A stretch of DNA of 64,000 bases from Octopus vulgaris (lineage: Eukaryota): contig OX597827.1 in NCBI GenBank assembly GCA_951406725.2, positions 80,786,001 through 80,850,000 on the forward strand, in the 5' to 3' direction. A model generated the notes under the pieces. It ran no database searches. It saw nothing but the letters and a program-made list of their open reading frames with translations, and was not told where the DNA came from. Positions 3,525-63,247 of this stretch are shown here, one piece after another (position 1 is the stretch's first letter; the number at the start of each line of letters is the position of its first letter). The position numbers and the translations under genes were made by a program.

Positions 3525-5689
3525 GTTTAAAAAAAAGAAGATAAAAGCAAATATTTCAAATTTACCAAAAGAAAGAAACTTAGAGATCACAAGAGAAAAG
3601 CTGGAAAATGCCTTAAAGGGGATGCGGAACTGAACATCTCCTGGACGTGGATCTTGGTTAAAAAGTTTCACTGCACTTCATGATTGAATGAACGCACAAC
3701 TAAATAGTTGTACTGAAACAAATGTCCCTGAATGGATGAGGAAAAGCAGGATGGTGTTGAGAGCAAAATATCAAAAGAAAGGAAATATAACAAGTAAATA
3801 CCAACCAATACCATATCTTCCACTGATGTGGGAGTTGTTGACAGACATTATGGCAAAGTACCTCAAGGAGGGGGGAGGGGAGGGGCGATTGACTGCCAGA
3901 AAAATAGAAAATGCATAGAAAGGGTTCTTGAGAGACAAATGACCTTTTATATATATATAGATCAACATGTCCCTTGAGAAGTCAAAAGCAGAAAGAAAAG
4001 CTTAGCAACTGCATGGATTGCTTACCAAAAGTCGTATTAAAGCATTCCACAGTCATGGATCCAAGAATGCCTCAATGTATTTGGGAGAACTGAGAATGTT
4101 ATCCGGTTCTTAAAGTACCAAAATAAAGAACTGCACTAACATCATATCAAGATAAGTTAGGCAAAGTTAGCATAGGAAAGGGCCATATTCCCAGTTGGTT
4201 CATACTTGCCATTGCTCTTCCAGATTGTTCTTATTCCTGTTTCAGAGAGGTTAAATCATGCTTCGTATTTAACAGTGATGAGGAAATGAACTCCCTCCTG
4301 TTCATGGATGACATGAAATTATTTGTCAAAAGTGAAAAATCTTTAGATTTATTGGTCCAGATTGTTAGAGTCATGAGTGATAACACTGGTCTGAAGTTTG
4401 GAATAGAGCAGTGTGTGGTGCTAGAAATAAAGGGATGATAAATATTTATGGCAGAAAGGATTAAACTCCCAAAACAATAAAGGAAAGTGAAAGTTACAAG
4501 ATTCTGGGTTTATTGGAGAAAGATGGAATTCTTTATGAAGAAATGAAGAATAAGGTGAGAAATGAATATTTTAGGAGAAATATTCAAAACTGAATGGCAG
4601 TAAAAGCATCTCCGTGCATGGGCAGTGTGACCTAGTAAGAGAGTCTGCTTTCCTGAACTGGACAAGGGAAGAATTAAGAGACGTAGACTGTAAAACCAGA
4701 AAGATAATGTCCATGTTTAGGTCATTGCATTGTAGAGAGACAGTGTTGAAAGGTTATACCTACCATGGAAGGAAGGAGGGAGAGAACTAAGTGATGATAG
4801 AGATGGCAGAACATGATATACAAAAGTGTGTGAGAAGCAACCTAGAAAGACTGATTTTTGAGCTGCGAGAAGAGAGGAGAAAGAATCAGTGGAGAAGGTG
4901 AAAGAATAGACGAAGCCAAGAGGAGCGAGAAAGAAACACCTGGGGAAGAGAGCTTTGTGGTTTGCATCTCAGACAAATTCAGGATGCTGCAACAGATGAA
5001 TATTGGTTATGGTTGAAGAACAGAGAACTCAGCAATGAAATGGAAGGATCAAAGCCAGACATTATGAAAGAATGCCATTAGGGCAAGACTATACTGAACA
5101 GGGGAAAGTGCTGAAAGTGAAAGGAGAAAGAAGAGTCCATTGTGCACATGATGAGCTCTTGTGGTCCTTTGGCACAGAGGGAATATAGGGGTAGCCAAAG
5201 CATTACACTGGGACATACTAAAACAAAGAGGGTTTGAAGGAAGAAGAAAACGGTACCAACCTCAACCAGAGAGTGTGACAGGGAATGCTCAGTTTAAGGT
5301 CTTATGGGACATTGCTGTACAGACTGACCATGAGATCCAACTAAGACAACCAGATACTGTCATTCTGGGCAAGATGTCAAGAGAGCGAATCATCATAGAT
5401 GTGGCTGTGCATCAGATGATAGGAATCTGGTGATCAATGAAGATCGAGAAATAGGAAAATACCAGGACTTTGCTTGGGAAATGCAAAGACTGTGGAGGGC
5501 AAAAGTAATCCCAGTAATTATTGACTGGGTAATGGCACCATTACCAACAGACTTGGTAGTTAGCTTATTGAGATTGGAGTAGCAAGAAGAATTGCATCAT
5601 TCAAACAGAAATCAGTTCTGTTAAGAACAGCAAGGATCATTTGAAAGGTCCTTGATATCGAAGGAAACTGGAACCAAGGACATTGATTA
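3525..5689 (+). mobile_element. Decayed R4/Dong-clade non-LTR retrotransposon (RT + restriction-like endonuclease), many stops and frameshifts
   Basis: EITREKLENALKGMRN*TSPG..WLKSFTALH; VPEWM...KGNITSKYQPIPYLPLMWELLT; RT catalytic LFMDDMKLF at ~4298-4324; RLE motif LWDIAVQTDHEIQLRQPDTVI...IIIDVAV and KYQDFAWEMQRLW. The 3' UTR resumes after an insertion and ends in (AAT)n at ~6376. Confidence 0.88.
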
Positions 5690-5747
5690 TAAATGTAACA
5701 CATTATTTACATTATTTACATTTGACGGATATTTGTCCTCATTTGTT

Positions 5748-5793
5748 AACACAACGTTTCGGCTGATATACTCTCCAGCCTTTATCAGGTGTC
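5748..5793 (-). ncRNA. Minimal type I hammerhead ribozyme-like motif (core G-to-A variant)
   Basis: GACAC CUGAUAA A GGCUG-GAGAGUAUAU-CAGCC GAAA CG UU GUGUU. Stem I is GACAC/GUGUU, stem II has 5 bp and stem III is palindromic (AACGUU). The core is CUGAUAA instead of CUGAUGA. Confidence 0.7.
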
Positions 5794-5842
5794 TTGCAGA
5801 AATTTCGAACATGGATTCTCATTCCTAAGGTATTTTTCGATG

Positions 5843-5880
<38 letters not shown>

Positions 5881-6092
5881 TTTGCACAGCTTCTAATACT
5901 GGAGATGTACATCAGTGTCAGCTGTTCACTATCAGTGAACTAAGGTAACACCTTATTCAGGTCACTGCCCGGAATTGAACTCGGAATCTTGGGGTTAGTA
6001 GCCCACGCTCTTAACCACTATGCTATATACCCACGGGCATATGGCAAGTTCGATTCCAGGCAGTGACCTGAATAATAATAATGATAATAATA

Positions 6093-6151
<59 letters not shown>

Positions 6152-6208
6152 GACAACAACATCGAAAAATACTTTAGGAATGAGAACCCAGGTTCGAAAT
6201 TTCTGCAA

Positions 6209-6255
6209 GACACCTGATGAAGGCTGGAGGGTATATCAGCAAGAAACATTGTGTT
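6209..6255 (+). ncRNA. Minimal type I hammerhead ribozyme-like motif (intact CUGAUGA, damaged stems II/III)
   Basis: GACAC CUGAUGA A GGCUG-GAGGGUAUAU-CAGCAA GAAA CA UU GUGUU. Confidence 0.7.
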
Positions 6256-6539
6256 AACAACAAACAAGATGAGGACAAATATCTGTCAAATGTAAATAAT
6301 GTAAATAATGTACATAATTCCTCATCTCTTAAATATAGAACTGTAAATGTAACACGTTTATGCATAACATCAGACAATAATAATAAAGAATAAGCAAAGC
6401 AAATTAGACTGGACACAAGCAGTGACAAACTTGCAAATGTCTGCAGAAATATAAACCAGGAACGATTGATTAAGACTGAAAATGACCAAATAAAAGACTA
6501 AGATTTGAGAAACAACTCAGTGAATACAAGTGAAAAATG

Positions 6540-8070
6540 ACCAGTCAGAAATTATGATGTCAGAGTGAAGAAAAGTTTCACAGGAAGAAACAAAGAATAT
6601 GACATACAATAATAAACAACTTCAATAGATTCCCTGGAGGTGAAACCATTGTAGAAAAACACGTTGATGAAATTATCATCAATCTAGCAAAAATAGATAA
6701 TGTTGATATTGGGACAGAAGATCTGACAGAATTTGAAGTGTAAATAATTACGGAATGGCTCAGAGTCCAAAATATGAACATGATGGAACAGAGTGACCTT
6801 TCTAAGATCTACAATAGTAACAAACATAATAAAACAATCTGTCAGGTGGGTGAAGATGGCCCTTAAGTCCATTCTAAACCAAAATGAACTGGATGTGGTA
6901 TCCTTGAGTGAGTTACTCTATGCTGCCACTATTGTTTGCAGGAAAATGATGGCCAAGGCTTGCCACGCATGGCCATCAGCTTCAAGATATTGTCATCAGC
7001 TGATGACAATGCATTCTATGCCTCACCCAAAAGCAGACAGAGACCAAATGAATCTTTTGAGAAAAGCAGGGGTTGATACAGTCTCAGTTTGCATTGAAGG
7101 ACTTTCAACCACAGGACTTTCTGTCAATCTACAGGAATCGAATGACTGGAATGGTAAAGCTGGTTCTGAAGCCTGAAGATGCTAGAAAGTTGCACTCAGT
7201 GATGAAAAGTGCAATTATAAACCTGTGGGAAATGCAGCCAGATGAACCAGAATCCAATGAAAATGTGTCCTCAACTGAGATGGCAAAACAAAATATAGCC
7301 AAACAAACCAGTCTCCAATATACTAAGGAGAAATGGGTGCAAAACCCATGCATGGCAAATAGCTGGGCAGAGCGAGGACCTCTGATGTAAATCTTAGCCA
7401 TTGGTGGTTTGCCTGCTCTGGTCTTAAACTGGAAACTGAGGGTTATGTTATTGCTGCTTTGGATCAGTGCCCTCTCACTAAGGGTCACTAGTATAATGTT
7501 CTGAAAGATGAAAGCAGGCCATTCTGTCATGTATGCAGGGAAGACTCAGAGACAATCAAGCACATAATCTCTGGATGCAGCAGACTGGCACCAACAGAAT
7601 AGTTGCAAACACATGATGGGGCAGTTCAGTATGACCACTGGTCAATATGCCGTACATGCCTCCATCATCACAAAGAGAGAATTGATAGGAACATAAACCA
7701 CCACAAGTTGTCCAGAATTCAGAAGTTACCATCCTTTGGAATGACAGTGTTCAAACTGATTGGGAAATACAGATTAACTGATCAGGGAGAATTATGGGGA
7801 ATAATGGTGGAAGAAAGAGATGTCTTTGAATGGACGTTGCGGCCCCAGCTCACAAAAGCACATCTCTGTAAACACTTGAGAAATTGAGTAAATATAAGGG
7901 CTTGGAGATAGAAACTGGAAGAATATGGCATCTCAAAGCAACAACATTGCTCATTGTTAATGGGGCCCTTGGAATGGTATCAAAAGGAGCAAACAAACAT
8001 GTTGGCTAAATTCCTGGCAATCTTAAAGCAAAGTGAATTGCAAAAGCTGATGCTTATGGATAAATAATGC
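6540..8070 (+). mobile_element. Second, internally deleted R4/Dong-clade non-LTR retrotransposon remnant
   Basis: LMTMHSMPHPKADRDQMNLLRKAG; CCHC knuckle CHVCREDSETIKHIISGC at ~7524-7580; RLE C-terminus EKLSKYKGLEIETGRIWHLK...GALG. The 5' boundary is approximate. Confidence 0.8.
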
Positions 8071-8084
8071 AACCATCTCCATAC

Positions 8085-8235
8085 AGTAAAGATTATTTGC
8101 CAACATAACATGGCAGTCCTGGTTTAGGATGAATGTTACTGTAATTTAACCCCAGGAGACATCGTCTCCAGCTGGCTTTATGACATTCATATTAAACCAG
8201 GACCACCATGTTATGTTGGCAAATAAATCTTTACT
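8085..8235. mobile_element. ~150-bp foldback/MITE-like element with ~52-bp inverted arms
   Basis: AGTAAAGATTATTTGCCAACATAACATGG..GTCCTGGTTTA..ATGAATGT pairs with ACATTCAT..TAAACCAGGAC..CCATGTTATGTTGGCAAATAAATCTTTACT. Confidence 0.7.
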
Positions 8236-11000: not shown

Positions 11001-11210
11001 TTACTCTTTTACTTGCTTCAGTCATTTGGCTGTGGCCATGCTGGAGCACCGCCTTTAGTCGAGCAAATCGACCCCGGGACTTATTCTTTGTAAGCCCTGT
11101 ATTTATTCTATCGGTCTCTTTTGCCGAACCGCTAAGTGACAGGGACGTAAACACACCAGCATCGGTTGTCAAGCAATGCTAGGGGGACAAACACAGACAC
11201 ACAAACACAT
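11001..11210 (-). mobile_element. tRNA-derived SINE family A, 3' half
   Basis: Matches the full copies at 21598-22003, 34988-35365 and 47551-47920 (…GGTGCTCCAGCATGGCCGCAGTCAAATGACTGAAACAAGTAAAAGA tail). Confidence 0.9.
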
Positions 11211-11211
11211 A

Positions 11212-11510
11212 TGCCTTGTGAGTGGATTTGGTAGATGGAAACTGAAAGAAGCCTGTCGTATATATGTATATATGTGTATATGTGTGTGCGTGTATATGTT
11301 TGTGTGTCTGTGTTTGTCCCCCTCGCATTGCTTGACAACCGATGCTGGTGTGTTTACGTCCCCGTTACTTAGCGGTTCGGCAAAAGAGGCCGATAGAATA
11401 AGTACTGGGCTTACAAAGAATAAGTCCCGGGGTCGATTTGCTCGACTAAAAGGCGGTGCTCCAGCATGGCCGCAGTCAAATGACTGAAACAAGTAAAAGA
11501 AAAGAAAGAA
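11212..11510 (+). mobile_element. SINE family A, 5'-truncated, inverted relative to the adjacent copy
   Basis: GCCTTGTGAGTGGATTTGGTAGATGGAAACTGAAAGAAGCC…GACTGAAACAAGTAAAAGA. Confidence 0.9.
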
Positions 11511-18830: not shown

Positions 18831-21065
18831 TCATCATCGTCGCCATCATTTAACATCCATTTTCCATGCTACCATGGGTTGGACAGTTCGACTGTGGTCT
18901 GGGAAACCAGGAGGCTGCAGCAGGCTCCAGTCTGATCTGGCAGTGTTTCTACAGCTGGATGGCATTGGCCATGTTTGGATGTGCTTTTTACGTGCCACCA
19001 GCATGGGTATCACAACTACAATTTCCATTTGATTTTCATTTTGATGTTGATATTGATGTACTTGACTCAATAGGCCTCCTCAAGCACACCAGGTCACCCT
19101 ACAATCCAAGGTACTTTGAATGGGCTGAGGCTGGTTATACAAAACTGGTGTAGGATACAACCGTGAACTCACTTTATTTGCCAGGTCTTCGCAGTCACAG
19201 TATAAACTTTGCCCAGACTATTCTTATTCTAGTGGTAACACTCTCTGAGTATCCACCCCCACTTTTTTGTATGATAACAATTTTTATAATCAAAAGGCTA
19301 ACTCCATGAGTAAACTTGGTCACCTAGGTAGCAGAAGCTATCAACTATTTCTAGTTTCTCCCCCTGGAGTGTGATGGAATCTGTTTTCTGAGTATCTGTG
19401 GTGTCTATTGCCCCTGTGCATCTGCCACACACGAAAGCTATCTTCTCAGTTAATTTTCCTTTGATGTTGCTGCACCTCTTATGTGTCCATAGCTTACACT
19501 GGGTACATCTTATGGAGTTTCTACCTACACCTTTTCTACAGATCAAGCAGGGCCACCTACCTGAGGGTGGGTGTGATGTGTTTACCTTCCTACTTACTAG
19601 AACTTTGGTCTTTGCTAAATTGACTCTAAGGTCTTTTGATTCTAAACCTAGCTTCCACACCCGAAATTTCTTTTCTAGTTCTGGTAGTGATTCTGCTATG
19701 AAGGCCAGGTCATCAGCATAGAGGAGCTCCCAGGGGCAACCCATCTTGAATTCCTCTGTTATTGCCTGGAGGACTATGATGAATAAAAGGGGGCTGAGGG
19801 CTGAACCTTGGTGGACCCCTACTTCTACCTGGAATTCTTCACTATACTCATTGTCAATCCTAACCTTACTGACAGCCTCTCTGTAAAGGGCCTGTACAGC
19901 CTTTATTAACCATTTGTCAATCCCCAGTTTCCACATCACCCACCAGATAAAGGATTGGGGGACCCTGTCAAAGGTTTTCTCCAAGTCCCCCAAAACTATA
20001 TATACTTTAGCTAGGTTTTCTCCTGCATTTGTCGAATCAGGAATATGGCATCAGTGGTGCTTCTACCCAGCATAAAACCAATCTGCATCTCATCTAATCA
20101 GACTCTTTCCCTAATGACCTTCTCCATGACCTTCATCACCTGATCCAGCAGTTTGATACCCTGTAGTTATCTATATCTAGAACATCACCTTTACCCTTGT
20201 AGCAGTTGACCATGATGATGCTACACCAGTCGTTGGGTATGACTCCATCATGAACTACCTGGTTTACAATGCGGGTGACTAGGCCATAGCCCACACCACC
20301 AGATGTTTTAAGCATCTCAACAGTGATTCCTGATGGGCCGGGAGCTTTTCCTGGCTTCATACCCTTAAATTGCTTTATCTATTAGGTAGCTGTCTATTCA
20401 GATAGCTGGTCCCTCTACTGGGTCAATATTTGGCAGGCTCTGCTCCTCCCATTCATTCTCCACATCCAGCAGTCTTTCATAATGGCTTCTCCAAGCCTAT
20501 TTCTTTTCACAATCATTAAAAGCAAGTGCACCATCATCCATGCAGACACATTTCTCTCCTGTGACATCACAATTTTCTCTCACACACTGTCTTGCAATCC
20601 GAAATACCTCAGTTCTTTGGTCTTCACGTCTCTGGACATTGGTAAATTTCTTCTTTTCTGCTTCGCCCTTGGCTATGTATACCTGCTGCCCAGCCTCCCT
20701 TTTGGCTACCTGGTACAGTTCCCTGCTACCCCCATCCTTCCAGGCTTTCCAGGCCTGTTTCTTTGCTCTAATGGCTTTGTCTACCATACTATTTCCCCAC
20801 CATGTAACTCTAGGTCTGGAAGGGACTTTGCACCATCCAGAGACTTGGTCTGTGGCACTCAGCAAGCAGTCCCGTAGGAATTTCCAGGTACCTTCTATAT
20901 CTGCTGTCTGTAGCTCCTCCTCCCTCTCATCAAATTTCTTGATGAGGATGTCCCTAAATCTCTGAACATGTGAAGGGTTCTTTAACTACCAAATCCTTCT
21001 TTTTTGGATTGGTTGCTTCTTGGTATCCTTCTGGCCTCAAGCCTAAATGACTAGCCTATGCTGGG
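18828..21065 (-). mobile_element. Decayed, 5'-truncated RTE-clade LINE (RT with a Cys/His finger in its C-terminal part)
   Basis: MKPGKAPGPSGITVEMLK; DLEKTFDRVP; GVHQGSALSPLLFIIVL; catalytic LLYADDL (ORF 19298-19993); CLICRKGVGRNSIRCTQCKLWTHKRCS…FVCGRC; 3' tail ends in (GAT)n at ~18828-18850. Confidence 0.92.
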
Positions 21066-21597: not shown

Positions 21598-22001
21598 ACT
21601 CTTTACTCTTTTACTCTTTTACTTGTTTCAGTCATTTGACTGCGGCCATGCTGGAGCACCGCCTTTAGTCGAACGAATCGACCCCGGGACTTATTCTTTG
21701 TAAGCCCAGTACCTATTCTATCGGTCTCTTTTGCCGAACCGCTAAGTTACGGGGACGTAAACACACCAGCATCAATTATCAAGCAATGCTAGGGGGACAA
21801 ACACAGACACACAAACACACACATATATATATATACATATATACGACAGGCTTCTTTCAGTTTCCGTCTACCAAATCCACTCACAAGGCATTGGTCGGCC
21901 CGGGGCTATAGCAGAAGACACTTGCCCAAGATGCCACGCAGTGGGACTGAACCTGGAACCATGTGGTTGGTTAGCAAGCTACTTACCGCACAGTCACTCC
22001 T

Positions 22002-22003
<2 letters not shown>
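21598..22003 (-). mobile_element. Full-length SINE family A
   Basis: tRNA-like head (GGAGTGACTGTGCGGTAAGTAGC…GGTTCAGTCCC), CORE-like GGCATCTTGGGCAAGTGTCTT block, internal microsatellite and family tail. Confidence 0.92.
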
Positions 22004-22047
<44 letters not shown>

Positions 22048-22049
<2 letters not shown>

Positions 22050-22262
22050 GTGCGTGTGTATATGTTTGTATGTCTGTATTTGTCTCCCCACAACATCGCT
22101 TGACAACTGATGCTGGTGCGTTTACTTAACGGTTCAGCAAAAGAGATCGATAGAATAAGTACCAGGCTTACAAAGAATAAGTCCTGGGGTTGAATTGTTC
22201 GACTAAAGGCGGTGCTCCAGCATGGCTGCAGTCAAATGACTGAAACAAGTAAAAGAATGAAA
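22048..22262 (+). mobile_element. SINE family A 3' half, inverted relative to 21598-22003
   Basis: Same tail sequence on the opposite strand. Confidence 0.88.
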
Positions 22263-22746
22263 GAATATGTGTTTATGTATGTATAAGTATATAGTCCTTA
22301 TGCGTGTATTTTCATATGTGTGTGTAGGAGTTGCTTATATAAAAAGAAGCCCGTTACTGCTTTTATCAATATCCATGAGCTTTCCCAAAGCCATGGCTTA
22401 ATTTTTTTAAAACAGACTTTACATTTATATTAATTAATTACTTATTTACCTTTAATTAATTTACTCTGGACATGCACGATTTGTTATTAACCTAAAGATT
22501 TCTTTTTGATTGAATGTTTTTTTTTTTTGATTTTATACATGATATTTATGCCTTTTTATTTTAATTGTATTTTTTAATTTTATTCTTTATTTTCTATTTA
22601 CATTTACTGTCCTAGCTTCAAAGCGTTTGGAAAAAACCGTTAGTTGAAACGACCAATCAAATTCAAATCTGTATTTGTCAATGTGCATTACACCATAATA
22701 TAGATTATGCGTATAACCTAAATCCTTGTTCCATTCTGGATCACAA

Positions 22747-35484: not shown

Positions 35485-36236
35485 AGTGGTCAGTTGGCAG
35501 AGGTGTTAGTGTGTTGGCCAAAATACTGAAGGGCATTTCTTCTTTACATTCTCCACTGGCACAAGTACCAATCAGGTGGTACTGTCATCAGCCAAATCAA
35601 ATCAAAATCACTGATGTGGCCGATGACAGTCCTGCCTGACTGGCACTTGTGCCAGTGGAATGTTAAAAGCACATCCGAGCATGATCATTACCAGGGCCAT
35701 AGATTGGCTCTCATGCCGGTGGCAGGTAAAAAGCACCATTTCAAGCGTGATCATTTCCAGCATCGCCTTACTGGCACATGTGCCGGTGGCACGGGAAAAA
35801 CAACATTCAAAAATGGTCATTGCCAGTGCTGCCAGACTGGCTCCCATGCAGGTGGCACATAAAAAAACTTTTTGACCGTGGTTGTTGCCAGAACCGCCTG
35901 ACTGGCCCTCATGCCGATGGCACATAAAAGCACCCACTACACTCTTGGAGTGGTTGGTGTTAGGAAGGGCATCCAGCTGTTGAAACTTTGCCAAATCAGA
36001 TTGAGCCTGTTGTAGCCTTCTGGCTCACCAGCCCTCAGTCAAACCATCCAACCCATGCCAGCATGGAAAACGGACATTAAAAGATGGTGATGATGATTTT
36101 GAGTTCAAATTAGGCTGAGGCTGACTTTACCTTTTGGACTTGATGGAAAAAGTACCAGTTGAACGGTGGGATTGATATAATCAATTTAGCTCCACCTCCT
36201 CAAAAACTGTTGCCATTTTGCCAAAATTTGAAACCA
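35485..36236 (+). mobile_element. SINE family B interrupted by a (GAT)n-tailed RTE-type repeat (~35552-36097) containing ~65-bp internal tandem units
   Basis: The family B head ends …TTTACATTCT at ~35551 and resumes GAGTTCAAAT at ~36101. Confidence 0.75.
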
Positions 36237-59511: not shown

Positions 59512-59985
59512 CCCTTGTGGTGCTTCTACAAACTAACAGCGATAGACTTAAACTGTGTCGGGCCATGGAACTTGTTGAACCAGAGAGAGGAGCAGATTAA
59601 AAAAGTTGAATCTATAGCAGTGATTAAAGATTTTGAGAATTCTGTTTAGAAAATGACATATTTTTGCAGTCTTCTTACATTTGTGTGTGTGTGTGTGCGT
59701 GCGTACATATGTACTCATCTATTTCTTAGACACAATTCCCCAATGACTCTATTTTCCTGAAATAGTTCTTTATTAAGGCAACAGTATATGATTTGAGGTC
59801 AGATTTAGTTGTTCTTGTCATCAGGTTGGCTGAAACGAGGAGGTTTTTTTTTGCTTGGATCATAACAGTGTTGCTATTTTTGATGTTGTTGTTGTCGTGT
59901 AAGAAACTATTTTATCAAACTGAACGATATTTCACAAACAATTCTTTCTCTATTCCAGGTTTCTTTGATTCATCGTTAATTCGCC

Positions 59986-62385
59986 ATGAAGATGTATAAA
60001 GGTGTGTTGCAGTGGCTTGCGCTGTCCTTTTTCTACCATGAATGTCGGGCTGTCGACCTCATTTACCATGTAGAAGAAGAAAAAAGCCCTGATAGTTATG
60101 TCGGTAATATCGCTTCAGACTCCAAGTTGTTAGAGAGTATTCCAAGCGAAGAACACAATCTGGTGAGGTTCCACCAATTACACCAGAGACAGACAGGAAA
60201 TGATAATCTTTTTACTGTTTCTAAAACTGGAGAGCTCTACACTGCCCAGAAACTTGATGCTGAGTTACTTTGTACATCAAATACGGAATGTTTCCGGATA
60301 ATCAAAATATCAGTACGTAGGGCACAGACATTTATGAAAATCTTAAAAATCAAAGTAGTTATTGAAGATGTCAATGACAATTCCCCAGAATTCTTGAGAA
60401 AAAGTGTAAAACTAGATTTTTCAGAAGGAGATGCCATGGGCTTAACAAAATCAATTCCGAATGCTATTGATAAAGATGTTGGCGATCTAAATTCAAAGAT
60501 TATTTATGAACTTCAAAGAAAAATCAATGATCCATTTAAATTGTCAGTTACGAAAAGGATGACTGGTAGTTCAAAGTTGGGGTTAATCCTTACAGAAAGA
60601 CTTGATAGGGAGAGAAAAGCTAGTTACACACTTCAAGTTATTGCCAGAGATGGTGGCAATCCAATGCGACAGGGTATTCTTCGCATCCAAGTTTCAGTTA
60701 CAGATTTGAATGACAATTCTCCCCTCTTCACCCAAAATACATTCAACATTTCAATAAAGAACACACATCATAGAAATTCACCCATTTTAATTCTTTCAGC
60801 AAAGGATTTAGATTTTGGAAATAATGGAAAGATTTCCTACCATTTTAGTCCAGAAACATCAACTGCTGCCACACAACATTTCTACCTAAACGCTGAAACT
60901 GGTGGCATCTTTGTAGTGAAGAATTTTACTTCAAGACAAACACAAACGTACAAACTCTATGTTGAAGCTAAAGATGGTGGAAGCTCCCCGCTGACATCTA
61001 TTGCCATGATTTTGGTCAATGTTGTTGACCAGCAGAACCATCCTCCAGAGATAGATATTAACTTTGTCACTGAATTGACAAAGAATACAGCTTCAATATC
61101 TGAAGGAATCAAAGTCGGCAGTTTCATAGCTTATGTCAATGTTATTGACAATGATATTGGACTGAATGGTGAGGTGGAATGTAGCCTACACCACGATAAG
61201 TTCCTTCTTTTAGATTTAGGATCAAAAGAATATAAAATTACGTTAAAGAAACCTGTGGACAGAGAGAAACAAGATAGGTATGACATAACAATTTCTTGTG
61301 AAGACAAAGGATCCCCTCCTTTACAGACTCAGAGACAGTTCTCCATTGAAGTAATGGATGTCAACGATGTACAGCCACAATTTACAAGAGAGACATTCAA
61401 ATTTCTGACTTACGAAAATGAGAAACCCAATTTCCCAGTTGGTTTTATTGATGCAACTGACCCAGACATTGGCCTGGGAGGGACACTCGTCTATTCCTTG
61501 TTTAGTAACACAGGAAACAATTTGCCATTCATTATTGCTGACTATGGTTTCATCTCTACAAATAGACCGTTAGATCGTGAAAAACAGGAAGCATTTAGAT
61601 TCAAGGTTTTTGTCAGAGACAGTGGTGTCCCTTCCTTAAATAACACAGCAAATGTGATTGTCGAAGTCCTTGATGAAAACGATAATGCCCCTTACTTTAC
61701 ATTCCCTAGTGTTAACCCTTTTAGTCTTGATGTTCACTATTATCCTCAGAGCAAGAATGACATCACAGTTCTGAAGGCTTCTGATAGAGACAGTCGCGAA
61801 AATGCCTTCTTAAAATATGAAATACTTGACGGCAATACTAAACAACTATTTAAAGTAAACCCTTACACAGGAGTGATGTCCTTTTCACGGACAGTTTATC
61901 AAAACGATGCCGGGTCTTACAAACTTCTGTTGGCTGTGAAAGACAATGGTACACCAGTTTTGTCTTCAACAACCACACTTTCTTTGACACTAACTGTTAG
62001 TAATAAAACCTCAACAAAACTGAACTCTGCTCATCTCCCGTCGGACAATACCGTCGATGCCACCATGCTGATTATCATTGTAGTCGCAGCTGTGATAGTA
62101 TCTATAGTTGTGGTGGTATCTGTTACATTGTGTATTGTGAGATGCAACAATGGCCAAAGTAACCAGGCCAGACCCGGAGTGAGCACAGCCATCCCTTGTA
62201 ACCGCGAAAAAAGCCACTATACAACACAGACGAAAAAAACCATTCCTGCACCTCGGCATTCGGTGGAGATGCGCAACAGGAATATTCTGTTGATGGAATC
62301 CAACAATGAGTTTTATCCACAGTATGAGTCGCAAAATGACTGGATAATACCTTCCACAGAAAGGAAGTCTCCTTCAACATTATTG
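59986..62385 (+). CDS. Pcdh: Protocadherin, large coding exon (signal peptide, 6 EC repeats, TM, proximal cytoplasmic region); likely spliced to downstream exon(s)
   Basis: 802-aa ORF to 62394 with a GCCATG start and hydrophobic leader. EC1 has C-X5-C (CTSNTEC). Linkers are DVNDNSP, DLNDNSP, DQQNHPP, DVNDVQP and DENDNAP, with DRE and DxD motifs. TM is MLIIIVVAAVIVSIVVVVSVTLCIV. Acceptor TTCTTTCTCTATTCCAG ends at 59958; donor TTG|GTAAGT is at 62385/62386. Confidence 0.96.
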
Positions 62386-63247
62386 GTAAGTTAAATTCTT
62401 AATGAAAATATCTTTTATTCTTTGATGCTTCCTTCCTTGGTTCAGGGATGAAGCAAAAACTGGTAAAAACGAACAAAAACACTTCGGAATTTTTTTCCTG
62501 GATTTTATGTTAACCTTCTTTATCACTAAACAGGTAGAGTTGTGTGTCTTGTTGAAGGACTGAAGGTAAATGCAACCAGGAGATTGGACAGCTGGGAAGT
62601 GAACTCGCGTATTGACCCTTAGCTTTACTGAGTAGGAAACGAAGGTGGTGGGGGAAGACAACGGTTGGGATCTGTCCGGCTGTCTGTATGTTTATCGAGA
62701 GAGAGAGGGGGAGGGGGTGGAGGGAGATAAACAGAGAGGGAGAAATGAAAATATAAGAGAACGATATCAGAGAAATGAGTAAAGAGGAGGAGAGACAGAG
62801 GGGGAGTGAAAAAGCAATATGGTGGATAGAGGAAGAGAGGTGGAGGAGGAGCAATATAAGAAAATAAAAGAGAAAAGATAAAGGGGAGAGAGAGAGGAAG
62901 AGAGAGAAAGAAAGAACCAAAGAAATAATGGAAGAGTGGAGAGGATGAGAGATGACAATAATGAAAGGGAGACATCTGAGCGATTCAATTGCAATGTTGA
63001 TATAAATTTGAGAGTAGAGGACATTGAACGGACGTTTCCTTTTGTATCAGCTGTCACTGTTAGGTCACTCAAATTACTAGAAATAGAAGTAAACTCCTCT
63101 TCAAATAAGGTTCTACTGACTTATGAAGAAAAGGCATGAAATCTTATTTGAAAAAATAAATGGAAAGAAACAGGCTGGTCATGGGTGGTCATGGGTGGAT
63201 CATGTCTTACGAAAGGTCTGTCAGATGTGAGTGCAATGTCAAAATAT

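What the first reader, a model, noticed from the sequence alone, without database searches (positions are those of the whole stretch)
5690..6355. TSD-flanked palindromic tRNA-headed SINE carrying Penelope-type hammerhead ribozymes: candidate Pol III ribozyme-SINE mobilised by Penelope-like elements
Seen in the sequence: one 642-bp unit between 12-bp direct repeats (TAAATGTAACAC, 5690-5701 and 6344-6355). It consists of two head-to-head copies of tRNA-like head + (AAT)n + ~150-bp body. Each body has a hammerhead fold: GACAC-CUGAU(G/A)A-A-GGCUG..CAGC(C)-GAAA-C(G/A)-UU-GUGUU. The two arms carry different lesions, so their consensus is an intact motif with a palindromic stem III (AACGUU). Only the right arm has a 33-nt 3' extension (6311-6343). 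Established knowledge: Penelope-like elements carry minimal, dimer-forming hammerheads in their pseudo-LTRs, often have inverted pLTRs and have short 3' extensions. Inference: this is a non-autonomous tRNA-promoter SINE that captured a PLE pLTR and hammerhead, and it inserted as one palindromic unit. Most described SINEs instead use LINE 3' tails, so this would be an unusual retroposition system.
Basis: partly seen in the sequence, partly recalled or inferred. Interest (0 to 1): 0.82.

Follow-up and report, generated by a model that had tools for sequence, protein, structure and literature searches.

The report
Octopus SINE with Penelope-type hammerhead tail
This is a decayed, mirror-image double copy of a very abundant octopus repeat that joins a tRNA-like start to a hammerhead-ribozyme-shaped end, and its insertion marks show it is likely copied by Penelope-like retroelements rather than by the LINEs that normally move such repeats.

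Summary
The anatomy is real: an exact 12-bp duplication, two head-to-head arms, a minimal type I hammerhead motif in each, and a 32-34-nt tail on the right arm only. Public reads show a high-copy family in two coded organisms; gene models tie it to Octopus bimaculoides and O. sinensis. In the family, the majority letter restores the hammerhead core, the tail is standard, the tail-less end recurs at the same base with mixed flanks, and other copies show head-to-head joins with 5'-truncated arms. These are the published insertion marks of Penelope-like elements (PLEs). The unit is a ~300-bp monomer; the palindrome is an insertion product, joined through a 12-nt self-complementary 5' end. Not shown: an autonomous partner, Pol III transcription, self-cleavage, covariation. 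Precedents exist (Schistosoma Sm-alpha, non-LTR retrozymes, MRC1), but ten paper searches found no tRNA-headed SINE with PLE tail and inversion marks. Verdict: new variant of a known kind, likely a PLE-mobilised SINE (0.7).

The parts
5690..5701 (+). Left target-site duplication (12 bp; last 2 bases also fit the arm end)
   Evidence: chance test
5700..5845 (-). Left body, ends without the tail at 5700
   Evidence: 296 (X1) and 294 (X8) contigs break at 5700 with mixed flanks
5748..5793 (-). Left minimal type I hammerhead motif; G8 changed here, restored in 90-93% of family depth or reads; predicted cut between 5753 and 5752 (GUU)
5846..5879 (-). (AAT)n linker, left
5876..5952 (-). Extra ~75-bp piece in the left arm only; itself high-copy; origin unresolved
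   Evidence: (depth 0.16-0.83 million in DNA bins 5891-5953)
5953..6039 (-). Left tRNA-like head: A box 6015-6025, B box 5971-5980
   Evidence: majority letters at 6024, 6021, 5976 move both boxes to the recalled Pol III consensus
6028..6039 (.). 12-nt near-palindrome centred on 6033/6034; natural 5' end of the monomer, present once and shared by both arms
   Evidence: loose end behind 6020 in 140 X1 contigs turns random after it
6040..6075 (+). Right head, about 39 nt missing at 6046/6047 (A box lost); B box 6048-6057
   Evidence: one X1 contig has 39 letters at this joint
6071..6150 (+). (AAT)n linker, right
6151..6311 (+). Right body
6209..6255 (+). Right minimal hammerhead motif; CUGAUGA intact, stem II closing pair and stem III palindrome damaged; predicted cut after 6250
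6268..6326 (+). Predicted 3' stem-loop (6268-6275 pairs with 6319-6326 in the tail); the tail-less end point 6311 lies in its loop
   Evidence: prediction only, z -0.08 for the region
6312..6343 (+). 32-34-nt tail, right arm only
   Evidence: same letters are the loose end before 5702 in all four runs; translated in the O. bimaculoides model P0003
6344..6355 (+). Right target-site duplication
3900..5689 (+). Host site: end of a decayed LINE (RT-like and endonuclease-like remnants; Dong/R4 likeness is recalled, not tested); more LINE remnants follow at 6386-8200
   Evidence: read by eye

Best explanation
This is a decayed head-to-head double copy of a high-copy octopus repeat, likely a tRNA-derived SINE that is copied and inserted by the reverse transcriptase-endonuclease of a Penelope-like element (PLE). 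Shown: the ~300-bp monomer is tRNA-like head, (AAT)n, a ~160-bp body with a minimal hammerhead motif, and a 32-34-nt tail; the family keeps the hammerhead core and has two 3' end points, with and without the tail. Inferred steps: (1) Pol III would transcribe the monomer from the A and B boxes (no run of four T in either arm). (2) The body is likely the captured pLTR-ORF junction of a PLE, the part that the anole PLE protein binds. (3) The PLE protein would nick both target strands 10-12 bp apart and start reverse transcription at either of two sites in the 3' stem-loop: one strand at the inner site (left arm, no tail), the other at the tail end (right arm). (4) The two cDNAs would meet at the self-complementary 12-nt 5' end, which explains why the centre holds one copy of it. 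(5) The hammerhead is probably carried along as part of the recognition region; cleavage would cut the promoter off the 3' end, needs a dimer or protein help, and both copies here are predicted dead.
For: Family size: 25,011 (X1) and 19,942 (X8) contig pieces and 7,613 and 6,068 RNA reads laid on 5450-6070. Core: majority letter at 5783 restores CUGAUGA in 91.7, 92.6, 93.4 and 90.5%. Architecture matches the published PLE minimal hammerhead: stem I 4-5 bp, long stem II, one extra base between positions 9 and 10.1, G10.1-C11.1, palindromic 15.2-16.2 (PMC4209133). Two 3' ends: tail as loose end before 5702 (204 and 178 contigs; 1,084 and 957 reads) and a break at 5700 with mixed flanks (296 and 294 contigs, agreement 0.44); the PLE tail is 30-40 bp, often at one end only, and equals the distance between two RT start sites in a stem-loop (PMC8557442; PMC11167929). 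Inversions: 6 of the 15 joints listed (84 in all) are head-to-head joins of 5'-truncated arms, for example 5810-6020 and 5788-6028; an inverted 5'-truncated copy at the 5' end is a PLE mark. Head-body linkage elsewhere: 5 of those 15 joints link head to body on one strand, (AAT)n follows the head in 199 and 184 contigs, and head to hammerhead depth is 1.4, 1.6, 1.1, 1.1. One event: both arms share the minority letters at 5797-5798, where 82-92% of the family differs, between exact 12-bp repeats. The anole PLE protein cleaves and extends both strands and prefers AT-rich targets. Partners exist: Penelope-like elements are 6.83% of O. vulgaris in 190 families.
Against: No autonomous PLE sharing this body was found: the window holds none, no genome is held, four protein searches gave only spurious or exonised translations and no RT domain. 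RNA reads lie equally on both strands, 85-87% run on into other sequence, and no place shows piled starts or ends (table 6), so neither Pol III starts nor ribozyme cuts are seen. tRNA likeness is below tool thresholds. Rfam gives no hammerhead hit. The joints rest on 1-4 contigs each with 22-51 letters on the short side, at 82% likeness, which the tool flags as error-prone. No listed piece spans head, (AAT)n and body, because the tool skipped the repeat at 5835-5885. Covariation and an empty site were not seen. The two arms differ by the ~75-bp piece, which one template alone does not explain.
Confidence: 0.7

Rival explanations
1. A non-autonomous PLE derivative (retrozyme- or MRC1-like) moved by PLE proteins, in which the tRNA-like head is a passenger or part of the parent PLE's own UTR, and transcription comes from host Pol II read-through.
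For: All PLE marks above. RNA is unstranded in depth, embedded in longer transcripts and without start piles. The head fails tRNA thresholds. Retrozymes are said to lack promoters (PMC7761336).
Against: The monomer's 5' end sits about 14 nt upstream of a near-consensus A box with a B box at tRNA spacing, both improved by the majority letters; no T4 run in either arm.
Confidence: 0.14
2. A compound: an ordinary tRNA-SINE ending in (AAT)n, into whose repeat PLE pLTR fragments insert again and again because PLE endonucleases favour ATT; the join was duplicated here by one inversion event.
For: The anole PLE cuts at ATT. Head depth exceeds hammerhead depth 1.4-1.6-fold in DNA. The left linker holds another piece. 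An earlier scan note (e1-7811937, another genome, unchecked) found such a join to be a one-off. No piece spanning head to body was listed.
Against: Head to body depth is 1.1 in both RNA runs; five listed joints tie head to body on one strand; head-to-head joints end at the head's 5' start (6020-6028), which needs head and body on one template.
Confidence: 0.09
3. A LINE-mobilised SINE (for example by Dong/R4 or RTE) whose inversion arose by twin priming or later recombination; the hammerhead is an inherited fossil.
For: The copy sits in LINE remnants; Dong-R4 and RTE are active in O. vulgaris; 10-12-bp duplications are common for LINEs (recalled).
Against: No poly(A) or simple-repeat 3' tail; both arms contain the same 3' end, whereas twin priming inverts without duplicating (recalled); two fixed 3' ends 32-34 nt apart are described as unique to PLEs.
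Confidence: 0.05

Closest known systems
Schistosoma Sm-alpha / Sj-alpha SINE-like elements (PMC6765202 passages; PMC2770079 passages)
   Same: tRNA-derived, SINE-like, high-copy, promoter followed by a type I hammerhead; Pol III transcription reported for Sm-alpha.
   Different: Those carry canonical hammerheads and occur in head-to-tail tandems; here the motif is the minimal PLE type and copies show the PLE tail and head-to-head inversions. The passages read name no PLE partner for Sm-alpha.
Metazoan non-LTR retrozymes (PMC7229834 passages; PMC7761336 passages; bioRxiv 10.64898/2026.07.22.740005 parts 1-3 of 5)
   Same: Non-coding, 170-400 nt, type I hammerhead, proposed pLTR origin and PLE mobilisation.
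   Different: Defined by tandem repeats and circular RNA, said to have no promoter; this element has a tRNA-like head, a fixed 5' end and a tail, and here lies inverted, not tandem.
Insertions of endonuclease-bearing PLEs (Penelope/Poseidon; PMC8557442, PMC11167929, PMC4209133, PMC2377424)
   Same: Minimal hammerhead, 30-40-nt tail on one end, inverted 5'-truncated partner, target-site duplication, AT-rich target.
   Different: No RT or GIY-YIG ORF; a tRNA-like head stands where the ORF would be; both arms here reach the 5' end.
Non-autonomous Chlamys elements such as MRC1 (PMC8557442 passage)
   Same: Short non-coding element with a PLE 3' end, moved in trans.
   Different: Green-algal clade, head-to-tail copies, no tRNA head mentioned in the passage read.
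tRNA-derived SINEs of cephalopods (OK, OR1, OR2; seen only as a citation, details recalled)
   Same: tRNA-like head, octopus, high copy.

Membership tests
tRNA-derived SINE | tRNA-like head with A and B boxes at the 5' end | tested here: inconclusive
   Both boxes present at tRNA spacing in the left head and improved by majority letters; Rfam 15.8 bits, E 8.2; ARAGORN only at threshold 70
tRNA-derived SINE | Short, non-coding, dispersed, high copy | tested here: met
   ~300-bp monomer; 25,011 and 19,942 contig pieces; only spurious translations
tRNA-derived SINE | Target-site duplication | tested here: met
   12 bp exact at this locus, 0 of 5000 by chance; other copies not examined
tRNA-derived SINE | Transcribed by Pol III | not testable with these tools
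   RNA-seq shows no start pile; such libraries would not show one
tRNA-derived SINE | LINE-type 3' end with poly(A) or simple repeat | tested here: not met
   3' end is a unique 32-34-nt tail; (AAT)n is internal
Non-autonomous PLE | Minimal type I hammerhead of PLE architecture | tested here: met
   against PMC4209133; by descriptor and majority letter, not by Rfam
Non-autonomous PLE | 30-40-nt tail on one end, two fixed 3' end points | tested here: met
Non-autonomous PLE | Inverted 5'-truncated partner at the 5' end | tested here: met
   this locus and 6 of 15 listed joints, each on few contigs or reads
Non-autonomous PLE | 3' end similar to an autonomous PLE of the same genome | tested here: inconclusive
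   no genome; protein searches blank for RT, weak evidence either way
Hammerhead ribozyme (active) | Self-cleavage, as a dimer | not testable with these tools
   left stem III motif can self-pair at -3.5 kcal/mol, right cannot; no read-end pile at the cut
Hammerhead ribozyme (active) | Covariation in stems I and II | not tested
   no individual copies could be fetched
Non-LTR retrozyme | Head-to-tail tandem units with two hammerheads on one strand | tested here: not met
   arms are inverted here; no backward joint among the 15 of 84 listed
Non-LTR retrozyme | Circular RNA | not testable with these tools
   only half the element was laid; table 5b not given

The most novel reading that the evidence does not exclude
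An undescribed class of SINE that uses Penelope-like rather than LINE proteins: a Pol III tRNA head fused to the minimal PLE recognition region, whose self-complementary 5' end lets two cDNAs primed on opposite target strands join, so that insertions become long palindromes. The window's dominant SINE shows the same head-to-head pairing, so a sizeable share of octopus SINEs may ride PLEs and seed the double-stranded RNA behind octopus hyper-editing.
Probability: 0.4. Interest if true: 0.8.

Novelty: new variant of a known kind. Interest (0 to 1): 0.6.

Why it matters
SINEs are known as parasites of LINEs (recalled); a high-copy SINE with PLE insertion marks would add a second engine. Its 160-190-nt body would be a natural minimal template for a PLE protein, and thousands of copies with one fixed 5' end make two open questions countable: how PLE inverted structures form and how the tail arises (called undefined in PMC8557442). 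Read-through of a palindromic copy is predicted to fold into a hairpin of about 190 bp (-331 kcal/mol); octopus has unusually many such structures and very high hyper-editing (PMC5625713 passages). This one copy is decayed and has no evident function.

Tried and rejected
No genome held. Two DNA patterns found 0 matches in genome, metagenome and viral contigs, so no single copies could be aligned. Rfam: 5 weak matches at E up to 10 in 5000-7100, none a hammerhead; 0 at gathering score in the window. ARAGORN 0 genes. Fold z-scores of five pieces were -1.6 to +0.3, none significant. Protein look-ups with body translations: 0 hits; 5 hits, of which P0006 is an unrelated repeat protein and P0002-P0005 are translations of this or a related repeat; 2 exonised gene models; only itself. 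Rejected: that the element is by nature a palindrome (depth drop); that the two arms are independent insertions (shared minority letters, one duplication); that the body codes a real protein (all hits uncharacterised or exonised, no domain); that the arms form a cis dimer ribozyme (opposite strands). Lunse et al. 2017 and Albertin et al. 2015 are not held. Earlier-finding look-ups by sequence, place and words gave nothing in 5 of 6 calls.

Full report
Setting. The window is a microsatellite-rich animal sequence (GC 36%) with an 804-codon protocadherin-like frame at 59980-62394. Translations of the element's body match gene models named Octopus bimaculoides (P0003, P0008) and O. sinensis (P0007), so the host is very likely an octopus. 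No genome is held and the window has no other copy. The element sits at the end of decayed LINE sequence.

Observation. All named features are present. The 12-bp duplication is beyond chance (0 of 5000), and so is the hammerhead-shaped motif (0 of 3000 shuffles), although Rfam and folding energy do not detect it. Two things were missed: a ~75-bp extra piece in the left arm and the loss of about 39 nt with the A box from the right head. Each hammerhead has its own lesion, so both are predicted inactive at this locus.

The family. A run search on 5600-6450 listed 24 runs; 20 hold part of the stretch, from four coded organisms and one small-share metagenome, 12 studies. I laid 4 of the 24 on 5450-6070 at 82% likeness: DNA contigs of organisms A (X1) and D (X8) and RNA reads of D (X23, X24). 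Laid: 25,011, 19,942, 7,613 and 6,068 records; these are not copy numbers. One X1 contig matches 5450-5726 without a difference, but it may come from the window's own sample. Table 3 shows 40 of 118 differences, table 5 15 of 84 joints, table 7 24 of 938 loose ends.

What the family shows. (a) The core: 90-93% restore G8 at 5783. (b) The head: majority letters at 6024 (94-95%), 6021 (52-66%) and 5976 (68-78%) bring the A and B boxes to the recalled Pol III consensus. (c) The tail is standard: it is the loose end before 5702 in all four runs. (d) A second end point: 296 and 294 contigs leave the element at 5700, exactly where the left arm stops, into mixed flanks (median 255 letters, agreement 0.44). 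In RNA the loose end at 5700 is mostly tail (0.63). (e) The 5' end: depth falls 35- and 47-fold in DNA and about 4-fold in RNA past 6037, and the loose end behind 6020 (140 contigs) turns random after the 12-nt near-palindrome. So the unit is a monomer and most copies are not long palindromes. (f) Head-to-head joins recur: 5742-6020, 5788-6028, 5810-6020, 5723-5742 and 5733-5742 on opposite strands and 5739-6047; one contig carries an unshortened right head at 6046/6047 and one other copy spans 5953-6070 with 17 differences and no gap. (g) Head and body travel together: five same-strand joints, (AAT)n after the head, depth ratios 1.1-1.6. The tool warns that joints at this likeness with short sides are error-prone, and it skipped 5835-5885, so no piece spans the linker.

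One event. Both arms carry the same minority letters at 5797-5798, where 82-92% of the family differs, and P0003 and P0007 translate the majority form. With one duplication around both arms this argues for a single insertion from one source lineage. The ~75-bp piece was then gained on the left or lost on the right; it is high-copy itself and stays unexplained.

Mechanism. PLE insertions are described with an inverted 5'-truncated copy at the 5' end and a 30-40-bp tail often at one end only (PMC8557442, passages). The purified anole PLE protein nicks and extends both strands, prefers AT-rich DNA, starts at two sites in a stem-loop whose distance is the tail, binds a region just downstream of the hammerhead, and does not need hammerhead cleavage; its hammerhead cleaves only with protein, and no RNA-seq ends were found at the cut (PMC11167929, parts 1-2 of 4). 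The octopus body has the same order: hammerhead, then about 60 nt on a predicted stem-loop whose 3' strand lies in the tail and whose loop holds the tail-less end. I infer both-strand priming on two RNAs, one from each start site, with the cDNAs joined through the self-complementary 5' end. Two-base overlaps between target and element at the left junction, and possibly the right, fit priming with minimal homology. None of these steps was tested. RNA reads give no sign of Pol III starts or ribozyme cuts, which fragmented RNA-seq would hardly show.

Comparison. It works like a non-autonomous PLE and passes the three structural tests I could run; similarity to an autonomous partner is open. It is SINE-like by head, size, copy number and duplication, but fails the LINE-type 3' end. 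It is not a non-LTR retrozyme as defined (no tandem here; those are said to lack promoters). The nearest precedent is Sm-alpha/Sj-alpha: tRNA-derived, Pol III, canonical hammerhead, tandem. A 2026 preprint argues that retrozymes derive from pLTRs, in vertebrates mainly, and the three parts read mention no tRNA head (supplements closed). The O. vulgaris repeat paper leaves 893 of 900 recently active SINE families unclassified; its supplement has 0 occurrences of 'hammerhead' and the two parts read do not discuss one (parts 1-2 of 3 and supplement search).

Novelty. Ten searches listed no paper that describes a tRNA-headed SINE with PLE tail and inversions, or a hammerhead SINE in octopus; I read listings for most and text for 13 papers. 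The library lacks most subscription journals, and Repbase, Dfam and the Zenodo library could not be searched; so abundant a repeat is surely in some library, perhaps as Penelope or unclassified SINE. Other papers seen: PMC4209133 parts 1-2 of 4; passages of PMC7229834, PMC10886601 (38, references only), PMC5625713, PMC2377424, PMC7761336, PMC6962438. Ferbeyre 1998, Lunse 2017 and Ohshima and Okada 1994 were seen only as citations.

Verdict. Observation confirmed with two omissions; interpretation partly supported. Best explanation: PLE-mobilised tRNA-headed SINE, 0.7. New variant of a known kind. Interest 0.6: the parts have precedents and the partner is not found, but the SINE-PLE pairing was not found in print and the family makes PLE inversion and tail formation testable at scale.

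Noticed in passing
window 11001-11500 and 21600-22267: The window's dominant tRNA-headed SINE (14 BLAST pieces to the 21600-22003 copy, itself included) also lies in head-to-head pairs in which both arms hold the 3' end: 11001-11209 (minus) directly abuts 11211-11500 (plus); the second pair is split by a (TA)n run and may be two insertions. It sits in (TA)n and my hammerhead descriptor does not hit it. This looks like the PLE inversion mark in a second SINE; Naiad PLEs lack canonical hammerheads and favour microsatellites.
   Followed up: partly
window 5802, 6027, 5746: A>G at 5802 and 6027 is 0.2-1% of DNA contig depth but 17-32% of RNA reads; T>C at 5746 is 1.3-1.5% against 7-18%. A hint of A-to-I editing; DNA and RNA are not from one animal and expressed loci may differ, and C>T/G>A places also rise in RNA.
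   Followed up: partly
window 5876-5952: Extra piece in the left arm, high-copy in both organisms, with its own majority letters; either a subfamily segment or a later insertion into the (AAT)n run.
   Followed up: partly
protein P0002 (unnamed assembly contig, 59.7 kb): A 145-residue translation with a 48-residue tandem repeat that resembles the hammerhead region and the sequence after it: a related unit in head-to-tail array, retrozyme-like.
   Followed up: no
proteins P0007, P0008: Gene models of O. sinensis and O. bimaculoides (dystrobrevin beta isoform) begin with a translation of the element's body: exonisation or annotation artefact.
   Followed up: no
window 59980-62394: Open 804-codon frame with five or more cadherin domains and a membrane segment, protocadherin-like.
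   Followed up: partly
window 19298-20985: Decayed LINE on the minus strand with RVT_1 (E 2.7e-17) and a PHD-like finger.
   Followed up: no
window 6046 and 5709 (loose ends in RNA): Hundreds of reads share one flank behind 6046 (331 and 239 reads, agreement 0.97) and one before 5709 (499 reads): probably single highly expressed host transcripts carrying a copy, the first with a short inverted arm.
   Followed up: no
window 35900-36097 and 13 other pieces: A third dispersed repeat ending in (GAT)n-like runs.
   Followed up: no
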